Program-made: the position numbers and the translations under genes | In this document: positions 18,001 to 22,495 of the stretch, one piece after another | How the letters are laid out: the number at the start of each line of letters is the position of its first letter | Position numbering within the stretch: the first letter of the stretch is position 1 | Source: an archaeon | Lineage (GTDB): Archaea; Iainarchaeota; Iainarchaeia; Iainarchaeales; 1-14-0-10-31-34 | NCBI GenBank assembly: GCA_024277355.1 | Contig: JAJRVL010000006.1 | Coordinates: 1 to 25,703, forward strand | DNA: 25,703 nt | Direction of reading: 5' to 3' | Notes under the pieces: generated by a model | Database searches by the model: none | Told to the model about the DNA's origin: nothing | Seen by the model: only the letters and a program-made list of their open reading frames with translations

Positions 18001-20162
18001 AAAATGTTCAAATTAGTGCTTTAATTGAAAATGTAGGGGATTTAAATGCAGAAAATGTTAATGTTGAATTTTATATGAAATCTGCTAATCAGTATTTATC
18101 TGATTCAAATACTGTTGCTTTATATCATTTTAATGAAGGAACAGGAGCAACAGTTAAAGATAAAAGTGAAAACAATAACGATGGCGATATTAATAATGCT
18201 ACATTTAATGGTGATGGAAAGTTTGACAATTATTCTTTGAGGTTTAATGGAAATGGAAGCAAAAATGTAGTTATTGTTCCTGATAGTGATTCTTTAGACA
18301 TTTCTGGGGAATTAACTTTTGAGGCATGGATTAAACCTGATGGAACTCAAGAAGGCGGGGCAGGCATAATCTGTAAAGGTTATGGTTCAAATGAAATTTT
18401 CTGTTTAGATATTGCTTCTAGTAAATTCAGATTTATTGTTAGGGCTCCTTCATTATTTTTATTAACTTCAAATTCTACAGTAGATATAGGAAAATGGCAG
18501 CATGTTGCAGCAGTATATGATGGCACAACAATGAAAATTTACATAAATAATCAATTAGATAACAGTATGGCAGGACCATCTTCATTACAAACAAATAATC
18601 ATGAATTAAGTATTGGAGCAAGGGAAGGCAGTGATACAAGCGATTATGATTTGGAATTTAAAGGATTAATTGATGAAGTAAGAATAAGTAATATTGCAAG
18701 ATCAGATTTTAATAAAAATAAAATATTTATTGATGATAAAAATATTTCTTTTATTGATGCAAATTCAAGTGAATTAGTTTCAGTTGATTGGAATAATGTT
18801 AAAGCAGAAGACTATGAAATTTATGTTAAAGTTGATGATGAAAACTTATTTGATGAAAGAAATGAATTAAACAATGAAGATTATAACTCAGTAATTGTTT
18901 ATTCTGAGCCAATTCTTTCTACAGAATTTGAATATTCAACATTAAATGACTTAGGAGAACTATTTGATTTTAATGCAATAATAACAAATAAGGGTGCAAA
19001 ACTTAGAGATGCAAATGCAACTTTAATTTTACCTGAAGAATTAACTACAACTGATTCAATAATAAAAACAATTGGAGATTTAAACTCTAATACTTTAATT
19101 AAACTTGAATGGACTGACATTAATTCAAGTCAAGCAGGAGTATATGAAATTAAAGTTAATGTTAAAGGAACAAATGTAGATGAAAACTTTTCTACTTTAG
19201 TTTCAATTAAACATATAGAATTAAGCGATTTAAACACAATAACAACAATATATTCTGATGACACAAATATTGCATATTTTAATATAATCAATTATAATCT
19301 AAACAACAGTTATGCAGGATATTATTATAGAACAGAAATTTCAGGACCACAAAATTATTCTTATGACAAAAATGTTGGTTTGCTTTATGCAGGAGAAACA
19401 AAACAATTAACTGCACAAATTCCTGACTGGAAAGAAACAAGAAATTATTCTTTGACTGTTTCATTATATGATTATTATGATACTCTTGTAGATCAAAAAC
19501 AAGATTCATTTGAGGTTGTTTCTTATTTGCCTTCTTTTTTGACTTATTATTCAACTGATGGTTTGACTTTTAATTCTGAGTTAAGTGAAAATGCAGATTA
19601 TTTTACTTCCGCTACAGATAAAAATGATGGAGTAATGGTTGTTTATTCTTATAAGGGAAGTTTAGATTATGCTTTAAGAGATTCTATTTTACAGGAATGG
19701 AATATTGGAATAAGTAATTTAGGCAATGGAAATTATCCTTATTTGTCAGTTGATGGAAATGAATTTTATTTGGTTTATGTTGATGGAAATATTTATTATA
19801 CAAACCATTTCCCGCCTGGAAGTTGGAGTTCAAGACAATTAGTTTCAACTTTAAATACAGTTGATCCTGTTATAACAAAAGATGGAAATAGTTTGTATGT
19901 TTTGTTTTCTTCAAATGATTTAACTGAAAATTATAATGTTTATTTGGTTGGTTCTTATGCAAATGTTTGGAAACAGCCGATGCAATTAACTTTCTGTGAG
20001 GATGCAAACTGTTCAAATCCAATGGTGTTAGATAAAGGACTAACAAACGGAAAACTGGCTTATGCTTATAGGAAATTTAAAGGAGAAGAATACACTTCAT
20101 TAGATTCAAATTTGATGTATTCATTATTTGATGTGAATTATTTTTATTGGGGTAATAATTGA
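15057..20162 (+). CDS. Giant secreted multidomain protein: zinc metallopeptidase (HEIGH) with CARDB-like, Asp-box beta-sandwich, ASH-like and LamG modules
   Basis: 1701-aa ORF with a TTG start 11 nt after GAGGGGG and signal peptide KNKLVLILFFLLIFSINVQA. Zincin motif HEIGHTYGLNEEYE at nt 16674-16715. CARDB-type endings DPQNNYEENDENNNS and DERNELNNEDYNSVIV. Asp-box SADNGSIW. LamG (Laminin_G_3-like) hallmarks LRFNG...SLDISGELTFEAWIKP...WQHVAAVYDG...MKIYINN...FKGLIDEVRISN. No TM helix or recognisable anchor. Confidence 0.85.
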   Translation: MKNKLVLILFFLLIFSINVQAGIINYSFEVQNSDYNTDALGWTEFKTNALFQDYNAETQVCSNQSVTPSILADTFIREFSEDARNGNYIFKTFSSEVGVSFTRNNYYIGELGIDTNICFWIKGWVSGGTGFRLGFWDNMTNNYCRVADIGSVDENWNYACGTFKTGSYNGFLTLEKEWRTTGIELLWDGFDSSSLGINILKPTPNQYIKQRDLLTVEFEIQDNDFNFLNLNPEGIQYRLDLLDDWNSIEASEFGINSFNTTAPDETGEHILTIRALVNGAWIHGSTKYLVSPQKIDLKINFIKAIQVIEDVNLVSGKATAVKVGVNNTNNAEEDQNVTVELTFNGQEYPLTEEFYGDYNFIFYVNNPFEIEDATVVFYLTAKIDPQNNYEENDENNNSLVQEVIVKRTSDLNVLFIAFDYGQDLDSFEKIVAQSIEFLEATYPIMNYDYYLVNYTGNLNLDQNYNKILFRLMKEIKLIGEDVNKNKFKAFRFVGVVPNGWHVDHNEFESKGATPCKKDTIPLECKPYFLIEDGNRSVLAHEIGHTYGLNEEYELKLNEPNPSPTDCGITFCSNYQQKYIDKNWCLGSVVTNGIWVNEKKVFVNQDLNICNYSNPYSYMGTALYSPPDRWTTFNEYDYLSEKLYLGGQFGKSNNQDLNILFVKGFVDKNLNVELDHLYKIDRTEEFGSSDGNCLIRTLDSNVSIINDYNFSVNFDLFSEGINTIDYSPFVLGINFNENLNSVQVICNGELKTERSISQNAPTVSISFPKTGDIWTDTNTLSWTSDDLDGDELSFALYYSADNGSIWIPIQSDVNDLSYSFPSWIVEGTNQFKFKVIASDGILSSESISDTFTVANADINVTPNEKNFGTINNLQNVSQDFNIVNSGNADLNVFDENHSGNLSLTGLSLPIVLQPGENHVFSVELNVLGMSLGEFTEDIALGSNDPNQIVKRIKVYGVIEQAKPDFTIKADNITFNPVYPEQDENVQISALIENVGDLNAENVNVEFYMKSANQYLSDSNTVALYHFNEGTGATVKDKSENNNDGDINNATFNGDGKFDNYSLRFNGNGSKNVVIVPDSDSLDISGELTFEAWIKPDGTQEGGAGIICKGYGSNEIFCLDIASSKFRFIVRAPSLFLLTSNSTVDIGKWQHVAAVYDGTTMKIYINNQLDNSMAGPSSLQTNNHELSIGAREGSDTSDYDLEFKGLIDEVRISNIARSDFNKNKIFIDDKNISFIDANSSELVSVDWNNVKAEDYEIYVKVDDENLFDERNELNNEDYNSVIVYSEPILSTEFEYSTLNDLGELFDFNAIITNKGAKLRDANATLILPEELTTTDSIIKTIGDLNSNTLIKLEWTDINSSQAGVYEIKVNVKGTNVDENFSTLVSIKHIELSDLNTITTIYSDDTNIAYFNIINYNLNNSYAGYYYRTEISGPQNYSYDKNVGLLYAGETKQLTAQIPDWKETRNYSLTVSLYDYYDTLVDQKQDSFEVVSYLPSFLTYYSTDGLTFNSELSENADYFTSATDKNDGVMVVYSYKGSLDYALRDSILQEWNIGISNLGNGNYPYLSVDGNEFYLVYVDGNIYYTNHFPPGSWSSRQLVSTLNTVDPVITKDGNSLYVLFSSNDLTENYNVYLVGSYANVWKQPMQLTFCEDANCSNPMVLDKGLTNGKLAYAYRKFKGEEYTSLDSNLMYSLFDVNYFYWGNN

Positions 20163-22495: not shown

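What the first reader, a model, noticed from the sequence alone, without database searches (positions are those of the whole stretch)
20159..22495. Single in-frame TAA splits a ~778-codon secreted protein gene: readthrough, fresh pseudogene, or error
**Frame.** ORF 20159-20710 and ORF 20726-22495 are in the same frame (20726 - 20159 = 567 = 189 x 3). Only TAA 20708-20710 plus five sense codons (DNYYN) separate them.

**The two parts look like one gene.**
- The upstream part has the signal peptide but is short.
- The downstream part is Cys-rich and extracellular in character. It has no signal peptide, no SD, only a TTG to open it, and its first ATG is ~79 codons in.
- Composition is continuous across the stop (...GTYNEYNNV*DNYYNLYDLSEGE...).

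**TAA is a normal stop elsewhere.** The methyltransferase, pyrC and rplP0 all end in TAA, so this is a local event.

**Possible explanations:** programmed or leaky readthrough giving short and long isoforms, a recent nonsense mutation in a surface gene under phase- or host-driven selection, or an assembly/population-consensus artefact.
Basis: seen in the sequence. Interest (0 to 1): 0.65.

Follow-up and report, generated by a model that had tools for sequence, protein, structure and literature searches.

The report
One-base premature stop, genome-wide G-to-T series
The TAA really does cut one 777-codon secreted-protein gene in two, but it is one of at least 13 single-base G:C-to-T:A stop codons scattered over this small archaeal genome, several of them in essential genes, so it looks like DNA damage or a sequence error and not programmed read-through.

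Summary
**Observation confirmed.** TAA 20708-20710 lies in frame between a 182-codon part with a signal peptide and a 594-codon open part.

**It is one gene.** All five orthologues found are single uninterrupted ORFs of about 770 aa in the same two-gene arrangement: one from the same genus and four metagenome proteins. The closest has TCA (Ser) at the stop position with identical flanks, so the TAA is one C-to-A step away.

**It is not a local event.**
- The same 1.13-Mb, 28 % GC DPANN genome carries single in-frame stops in at least 12 other conserved genes: PdxS, PfkB kinase, carbamoyltransferase, DHS, NrdD, RtcA, hydrogenase large subunit, TctA, PepA, GluRS, ProRS and Dxr.
- All 12 are intact in the sister genomes.
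- All 13 stops are compatible with a G:C>T:A change. About 17 % would be expected from this lineage's own substitution spectrum (P about 1e-10).
- They fall anywhere along the genes, including single-copy essential ones, so selection has not filtered them.

**Against read-through or a code change.** I found no suppressor tRNA and no structure after the stop. TAA is also the main terminator.

**Verdict.** The best reading is an 8-oxoG-type damage or consensus artefact. Very recent real lesions are the rival.

Earlier notes of this scan describe the same pattern on other pieces of this genome.

The parts
15057..20162 (+). Upstream partner gene: 1701-aa secreted protein (signal peptide, HYDIN/VesB-like Ig, CARDB and Laminin_G_3 domains). 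Its TGA stop overlaps the ATG of the interrupted gene (TGATG).
   Evidence: The same pair of a 1670-1674-aa CARDB protein and a 774-aa protein with a 4-nt overlap occurs in L018/L019 and in L006.
20162..20707 (+). Codons 1-182 of the interrupted gene: signal peptide plus the conserved N-terminal region.
   Evidence: It aligns without gaps to residues 1-182 of the single-ORF orthologues P0002-P0004 and G001. dN/dS against P0002 is 0.11.
20708..20710 (+). Premature TAA (codon 183). The aligned codon is TCA (Ser) in the closest orthologue, CTA (Leu) in the same-genus genome and GCT (Ala) in a third lineage.
   Evidence: The nine bases on each side are identical to L017, which has TCA.
20711..22492 (+). 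Codons 184-777: Cys-rich all-beta extracellular part. The last ~250 aa form a module shared with other secreted proteins of the genus. There is no further stop or frameshift.
   Evidence: dN/dS against P0002 is 0.23, compared with 0.20 between two intact orthologues.
22493..22495 (+). Natural TAA terminator of the gene, at the same place as in the orthologues (...IITQKTT*).

Best explanation
**What the gene is.** Window 20162-22495 is a single gene for a ~777-aa secreted, Cys-rich, all-beta protein of unknown family. It is translationally coupled to the 1701-aa CARDB/LamG surface protein upstream.

**What the stop is.** Codon 183 reads TAA because of one base change, most parsimoniously TCA to TAA (C to A).

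**The genome-wide series.** This change belongs to a series of at least 13 single G:C-to-T:A nonsense changes. They are private to this assembly, spread over at least 7 of its 11 contigs, and have not been filtered by selection. They interrupt single-copy GluRS, ProRS, deoxyhypusine synthase, NrdD and Dxr in the same way.

**Inferred cause.** The most likely origin is oxidised guanine (8-oxoG pairs with A) that became fixed in the sequenced molecules at a template bottleneck or in the consensus. That makes it a sequence artefact: the living organism probably makes the full-length protein from a sense codon.

**Shown versus inferred.**
- Shown: it is one gene, the stop is one step from a sense codon, the series is genome-wide, and the mutation class is uniform.
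- Inferred: the damage or artefact origin.
For: **One gene.**
- Five orthologues (769-774 aa, plus a contig-truncated 581+ aa copy) run straight through the position.
- They share the same coupled gene pair.

**Young or unreal stop.**
- There is no second defect in the 594 codons after the stop.
- dN/dS downstream is 0.23, as between intact orthologues.

**Genome-wide series.**
- Pfam domains align across the internal stop in PdxS, PfkB, Carbam_trans_N, DS, NRDD, RTC, TctA and Peptidase_M17_N.
- Sister genomes G001-G005 have no stop in any of these genes, nor in GluRS, ProRS and Dxr.

**Ancestral codons.**
- GAA to TAA in eight genes: PdxS, NrdD, carbamoyltransferase, GluRS, TctA, ProRS, hydrogenase and PfkB.
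- TCA to TAA in two: the window gene and RtcA.
- GGA to TGA in three: DHS, PepA and Dxr.
- All 13 are compatible with G:C>T:A. Ten are unambiguous and three are the most parsimonious reading.

**Expected share of that class among nonsense paths.**
- 0.29 with uniform rates.
- 0.13-0.19 with the lineage's own private-substitution spectrum. Only 20 of 345 ordinary G000-private changes are G:C>T:A, much as in the sisters.
- That gives P of about 1e-7 to 1e-10.

**Stop type.** TAA:TGA:TAG is 10:3:0, against 9.2:3.5:0.3 expected from G:C>T:A paths weighted by codon usage.

**No selection filter.**
- The stops lie at 12-89 % of gene length.
- GluRS and ProRS are single-copy.

**Known artefact class.** 8-oxoG gives C>A/G>T artefacts during sample preparation (PMC3616734).
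Against: - Whether the TAA is in the reads, and at what fraction, is unknown.
- Library-preparation 8-oxoG artefacts are normally of low allelic fraction (PMC3616734). They should not reach the consensus of a well-covered assembly with a 526-kb contig. A template bottleneck such as low-input amplification has to be assumed, and nothing about the library is known.
- Position 183 is variable among orthologues (S/L/A), so TTA to TAA (T to A) cannot be excluded for this one site.
- No independent assembly of the same population was found. There was no exact DNA match in metagenome contigs, and all truncated proteins exist only in the one NCBI record.
Confidence: 0.65

Rival explanations
1. **Real, very recent nonsense mutations.** The sequenced lineage went through a burst of oxidative G:C>T:A mutagenesis, or a mutator episode, shortly before sampling. 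On this reading the surface-protein gene and the other genes are fresh pseudogenes, or alleles carried by a small clonal or dying population.
For: - The single-step changes, the absence of secondary lesions and the unchanged dN/dS fit young real mutations as well as they fit errors.
- No dedicated 8-oxoG glycosylase was detected in the genus. The only HhH-GPD genes are Nth-like and MpgII-like, and the AGOG search was uninformative.
- An assembly with long contigs normally has a reliable consensus.
Against: - A cell with simultaneous nonsense codons in its only GluRS and ProRS genes, plus DHS, NrdD, Dxr and PdxS, should not grow. It is hard to see how such a cell could dominate a sample.
- The ordinary G000-private substitution spectrum shows no G:C>T:A excess over the sisters (5.8 % against 3.8-7.3 %). 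There is therefore no long-standing mutator.
Confidence: 0.27
2. **Tolerated or functional read-through.** The stops are real, and termination at TAA/TGA is leaky enough in this archaeon for full-length proteins to be made. For this gene that would give a short 182-aa isoform and a long 777-aa isoform.
For: - Essential genes carrying stops would need rescue if the stops are real.
- In-frame stops under purifying selection, with presumed read-through, have been reported as widespread but short-lived in prokaryotes (PMC7918605).
- In a 28 % GC genome, back-up stops follow quickly after normal terminators, which would lower the cost of leakiness (inference).
Against: - The stop is not conserved in any orthologue.
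- There is no stable structure after the stop. The MFE is weaker than in 195 of 200 shuffles.
- ARAGORN finds no tRNA with a stop anticodon, with or without introns.
- TAA is the strongest and commonest terminator here.
- The uniform G:C>T:A origin points to a mutational process, not to selected sites.
Confidence: 0.06
3. **Changed genetic code.** TAA (and TGA) would be read as an amino acid, for example TAA as Glu.
For: Eight of the ten in-frame TAA codons sit where relatives have Glu.
Against: - TAA ends 65 % of long ORFs and TGA ends 27 %.
- Two in-frame TAA codons align to Ser, and the three TGA codons align to Gly.
- GAA, TCA and GGA are simply the commonest codons one G:C>T:A step away from a stop, and the observed mix fits codon usage.
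- There is no matching tRNA.
- The sister genomes use GAA at these positions.
Confidence: 0.01

Closest known systems
Internal-stop ('interrupted') genes in draft or metagenome-assembled genomes, annotated as pseudogenes or split ORFs
   Same: A single in-frame stop in an otherwise intact gene with intact orthologues. The two pieces are deposited as separate proteins of 182 aa and 589 aa.
   Different: Here the stops form a genome-wide series with one uniform mutation class (G:C>T:A), and they include essential single-copy genes.
8-oxoguanine-derived C>A/G>T artefacts of DNA sample preparation (Costello et al. 2013, PMC3616734)
   Same: The same base-change class. There is no relation to gene function or to selection.
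   Different: Those artefacts appear at low allelic fraction in deep data and show read-orientation bias. Here they sit in an assembly consensus, which needs a template bottleneck that I could not verify. Their CCG>CAG context preference cannot be assessed, because a stop-creating site fixes its own context.
Short-lived in-frame stops with presumed read-through in prokaryotic genes (Belinky et al. 2021, PMC7918605)
   Same: In-frame stops in genes that still look constrained, each private to one genome and therefore SNP-like in age.
   Different: That work infers read-through from the conservation of flanks. Here the flanks are uninformative because the stop is too young, and no read-through signal was found.
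Programmed recoding of stop codons (selenocysteine at UGA, pyrrolysine at UAG)
   Same: An in-frame stop inside a gene that is conserved on both sides.
   Different: - The codon is TAA, and it is not conserved in orthologues.
- I saw no dedicated tRNA and no stable downstream element.
- The orthologous residue varies (Ser/Leu/Ala).

Membership tests
Programmed stop-codon read-through / recoding site | The stop codon is conserved at the same position in orthologues | tested here: not met
   Five orthologues have sense codons at this position: TCA, CTA and GCT.
Programmed stop-codon read-through / recoding site | A stimulatory RNA structure or special context 3' of the stop | tested here: not met
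   Window 20700-20830 folds at -12.3 kcal/mol against a shuffle mean of -16.6 (z = +1.62). The contexts of 13 stops share no motif.
Programmed stop-codon read-through / recoding site | A suppressor or dedicated tRNA that reads the stop | tested here: not met
   ARAGORN on the whole genome, with and without introns, finds no tta, cta or tca anticodon. The tRNA set found is incomplete, so absence is not proven.
Stop-codon reassignment (alternative genetic code) | The codon is no longer used as a terminator, and it maps to one amino acid | tested here: not met
   TAA ends 343 of 526 long ORFs. In-frame TAA aligns to Glu and Ser, and in-frame TGA to Gly.
Young nonsense lesion (mutation or error) in a single gene | Orthologues are intact and collinear across the stop | tested here: met
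Young nonsense lesion (mutation or error) in a single gene | One base step from a sense codon seen in relatives, and no further disabling change | tested here: met
   TCA in the closest relative has identical flanks. The 594 codons after the stop are open. dN/dS is 0.23, as between intact orthologues.
Oxidative-damage (8-oxoG) G>T/C>A sequence artefact | The changes are exclusively G:C>T:A and exceed what the organism's own spectrum predicts | tested here: met
   All 13 stops are compatible. The expected share is 0.13-0.29.
Oxidative-damage (8-oxoG) G>T/C>A sequence artefact | The changes are blind to selection: spread over the genome, anywhere within genes, essential genes included | tested here: met
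   The 13 stops lie on contigs C2, C3, C4, C6, C7, C9 and C11. They fall at 12-89 % of gene length. Single-copy GluRS and ProRS are affected.
Oxidative-damage (8-oxoG) G>T/C>A sequence artefact | Read-level signature: low or skewed allelic fraction, with G>T on read 1 and C>A on read 2 | not testable with these tools

The most novel reading that the evidence does not exclude
The stops are real and the population is alive. This DPANN archaeon would then tolerate more than a dozen nonsense codons, including in its only GluRS and ProRS genes, because termination at TAA/TGA is leaky enough to supply full-length protein. That would be natural, genome-wide nonsense suppression in an archaeon without a visible suppressor tRNA.
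Probability: 0.06. Interest if true: 0.75.

Novelty: not a real feature. Interest (0 to 1): 0.2.

Why it matters
**For the gene.** It should be annotated as one ~777-aa secreted protein with an internal stop. It is not two genes and not a read-through candidate.

**For the genome.**
- The assembly carries a detectable G:C>T:A error or lesion load. From 13 or more stops among the stop-capable sites, I roughly extrapolate one to a few hundred such changes in 1.13 Mb.
- Any single-base peculiarity in it should be distrusted until reads are checked. That covers in-frame stops, lost starts and odd residues at conserved positions.

**As a method.** The mutation class of private in-frame stops can be compared with the lineage's own substitution spectrum without any reads. 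This test separates a damage series from ordinary pseudogenisation or recoding.

**If the stops were real.** The case would become a striking example of tolerated nonsense codons in essential archaeal genes.

Tried and rejected

**Search for the same population elsewhere.**
- An exact DNA pattern across the stop, with NNN at the codon, gave 0 hits in metagenome contigs.
- The truncated proteins exist only in the one NCBI record.
- The one extra cluster member, P0021 from Logan, is a sister species at 87 % nucleotide identity.

**Function of the protein.**
- No Pfam family was found, even at E <= 1, in any of 8 homologues.
- A profile search of PDB sequences gave no hit.
- BLASTP found no internal repeat and no similarity to the upstream 1701-aa protein.
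- The AlphaFold2 model from an 8-sequence alignment was poor (pLDDT 42, pTM 0.29). No fold search was run on it.

**Mutator hypothesis via lost repair genes.**
- G000 lacks a second HhH-GPD gene that three sisters have. By sequence that gene looks MpgII-like, meaning alkylation repair and not 8-oxoG repair. This is my own knowledge and I did not test it.
- The AGOG search also failed to hit in the control genomes, so it says nothing.

**Genome-wide census.**
- A census using a codon-usage score was too noisy, because antisense frames pass the filter. The count of 13 is therefore a verified lower bound, not a total.
- A rough screen for frameshift-type breaks gave no clear case, but it is not exhaustive.
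Full report
**1. The observation**

The sequence is as described.
- An ORF with a signal-peptide-like N-terminus (MRNKLILGIILIFLFNLVSA/EV...) starts at ATG 20162. The ORF list opens it one codon earlier, at TTG 20159.
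- It ends at TAA 20708-20710.
- The same frame continues with DNYYN and then stays open for 594 codons to TAA 22493-22495.
- The first ATG after the stop is 84 codons downstream, and nothing like the AGGTGA seen before neighbouring genes precedes TTG 20726.
- The ATG at 20162 overlaps the TGA of the upstream 1701-aa gene (TGATG).

**2. It is one gene**

The window is a whole contig (C4) of a genome of 1.13 Mb in 11 contigs, with 28 % GC and 96 % estimated completeness. It belongs to a DPANN-type archaeon. A genome of the same genus is labelled Candidatus Diapherotrites archaeon CG10_big_fil_rev_8_21_14_0_10_31_34.
- In that genome the gene after the orthologue of the 1701-aa protein starts with the same overlap and runs straight through the position as one ORF. 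It is 581+ aa long and is cut by the contig end.
- A search of 5.8 billion proteins returned three full-length single proteins of 772, 774 and 769 aa, at 78, 62 and 61 % identity. A C-terminal search added a fourth of 762 aa.
- Their contigs show the same coupled pair of a 1670-1674-aa CARDB protein and a 774-aa protein.
- No orthologue is split.

At the stop position the relatives have Ser (TCA), Leu (CTA) and Ala (GCT). The closest has ...AATGTT TCA GACAATTAT..., against ...AATGTT TAA GACAATTAT... in the window. So one C-to-A change explains the stop. Because the position is variable, TTA to TAA cannot be strictly excluded.

dN/dS against the closest orthologue is 0.11 upstream of the stop and 0.23 downstream. 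That matches the 0.13 and 0.20 seen between two intact orthologues. There is no second lesion. The stop is therefore very young or not real.

**3. What the protein is**

- No Pfam or PDB-sequence relative was found.
- The AlphaFold2 model was too poor to use (pLDDT 42) and shows only beta strands.
- The middle part (about residues 210-480) shares ~100-aa Cys-containing segments with many large secreted proteins of related genomes.
- The last ~250 aa form a module that is also found behind unrelated N-terminal parts. In one sister genome such a protein sits at the same place, upstream of pyrE.
- I read it as a lineage-specific secreted or surface protein made together with the CARDB/LamG protein. 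That is inference from the signal peptide, the Cys content and the gene coupling.

**4. The stop is not a local event**

I screened the whole genome for two long open stretches in one frame separated by one stop, with no nearby ATG. This turned up many conserved genes with the same anatomy.
- Pfam domain alignments run across the internal stop in PdxS, a PfkB kinase, carbamoyltransferase, deoxyhypusine synthase, NrdD, RtcA, a TctA-family transporter and leucyl aminopeptidase.
- The same holds by comparison with relatives for the hydrogenase large subunit, GluRS, ProRS and Dxr.
- In four or five sister genomes none of these genes has a stop.
- Three more large surface or membrane proteins look the same, but I did not verify them: C2:89866, C10:112543 and C8:1496.
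- The 13 verified stops lie on 7 of the 11 contigs and at 12-89 % of gene length. GluRS and ProRS are single-copy.

**5. One mutational class**

The aligned codons in relatives are as follows.
- GAA for eight of the TAA stops.
- TCA for two of the TAA stops: this gene and RtcA.
- GGA for all three TGA stops.
- All 13 are compatible with G:C>T:A. Ten are unambiguous. For three (this gene, NrdD and PfkB) it is the most parsimonious reading.

How surprising this is depends on the null model.
- With this genome's codon usage and equal rates, only 29 % of single-base paths to a stop are of this class. AAA, TTA and TAT to TAA dominate.
- With the lineage's own spectrum the expected share is 13-19 %. 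I took that spectrum from 345 G000-private substitutions in eight of the same genes, of which only 20 are G:C>T:A, much as in the sisters.
- Thirteen of thirteen then has P of about 1e-7 to 1e-10.
- The mix of stops (TAA:TGA:TAG = 10:3:0) fits G:C>T:A hits weighted by codon usage, which predicts 9.2:3.5:0.3.

So the stops come from a process different from the lineage's ordinary evolution. They strike G:C pairs at random and have not been seen by selection.

**6. Mechanism and rivals**

G-to-T is the signature of 8-oxoguanine, which pairs with A. It is a documented source of artefactual C>A/G>T calls from sample preparation (PMC3616734).
- **Artefact (about 0.65).** A cell cannot be expected to live with stops in its only GluRS and ProRS genes plus DHS, NrdD and Dxr. 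I therefore favour an artefact, meaning lesions fixed at a template bottleneck or a faulty consensus.
- **Weak point of the artefact reading.** Such artefacts are normally of low allelic fraction. A bottleneck therefore has to be assumed, and I know nothing about the library.
- **Real mutations (about 0.27).** A very recent burst of oxidative or mutator mutations remains possible.
- **Read-through (about 0.06).** It has no positive support. There is no conservation of the stop, no structure after it and no suppressor tRNA. It would become necessary only if the stops proved real (compare PMC7918605).
- **Changed code.** This is excluded by terminator usage.

**7. What could not be done**

No independent assembly of the same population was found.

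**8. Relation to earlier notes of this scan**

I had found the genome-wide pattern before looking up earlier notes. Those notes report the same kind of private single-base stops on other pieces of this genome: proS, gltX, dxr, nrdD, rtcA and others.
- I re-verified gltX, proS, dxr, nrdD and rtcA here.
- I added the mutation-spectrum test.
- The finding is therefore not new to the scan.

**9. Verdict**

The interpretation as a possible programmed or locus-specific event is not supported. It is one ordinary gene with one G:C>T:A nonsense change, part of a genome-wide damage-type series that is most likely artefactual. Interest is low, apart from the warning it gives about this assembly.

Noticed in passing
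G000 contig C7:24586-25920 (+), outside the window: S-adenosylmethionine decarboxylase (PF02675) and deoxyhypusine synthase (PF01916) lie in one open frame with no stop between them. One sister copy also has a 460-aa open frame, while other relatives have 332-341 aa. This may be a fusion of two polyamine/hypusine-pathway enzymes.
   Followed up: no
window ~21730-22492; L008, L009: The last ~250 aa of the gene (...PPTTTSDVNGNWQN... to ...INYIITQKTT) form a module attached to unrelated N-terminal regions in sister genomes. In G005 such a 708-aa protein sits at the same place, directly upstream of pyrE. This suggests exchange of the N-terminal part of a surface protein at a fixed locus.
   Followed up: partly
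window 13264-14928 (-): Three small genes of 142-153 aa each have a signal peptide followed by ...SGC, which is lipobox-like. Two are clearly paralogous. None has a Pfam family.
   Followed up: no
G000 C2:~287570-288742, compared with L055-L057: Three sister genomes have a second HhH-GPD glycosylase (231-239 aa, MpgII-like by eye) next to a cation/H+ antiporter. G000 has the antiporter but tblastn finds no such glycosylase.
   Followed up: partly
L024 (G002:C29), L025/L026 (G004:C40): The nrdD open frames are 1023-1092 aa long, and the Pfam NRDD model matches in two separated pieces. This suggests an intein-like insert in two sister genomes. In G000 and G001 the last ~50 model positions, the glycyl-radical tail, lie beyond a stop.
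   Followed up: no
G000 whole genome: ARAGORN finds only 26 tRNA genes without introns. It finds about 37 when long introns of 43-149 nt are allowed, so many tRNA genes of this genome seem to carry large introns. The intron-mode calls were not verified.
   Followed up: no
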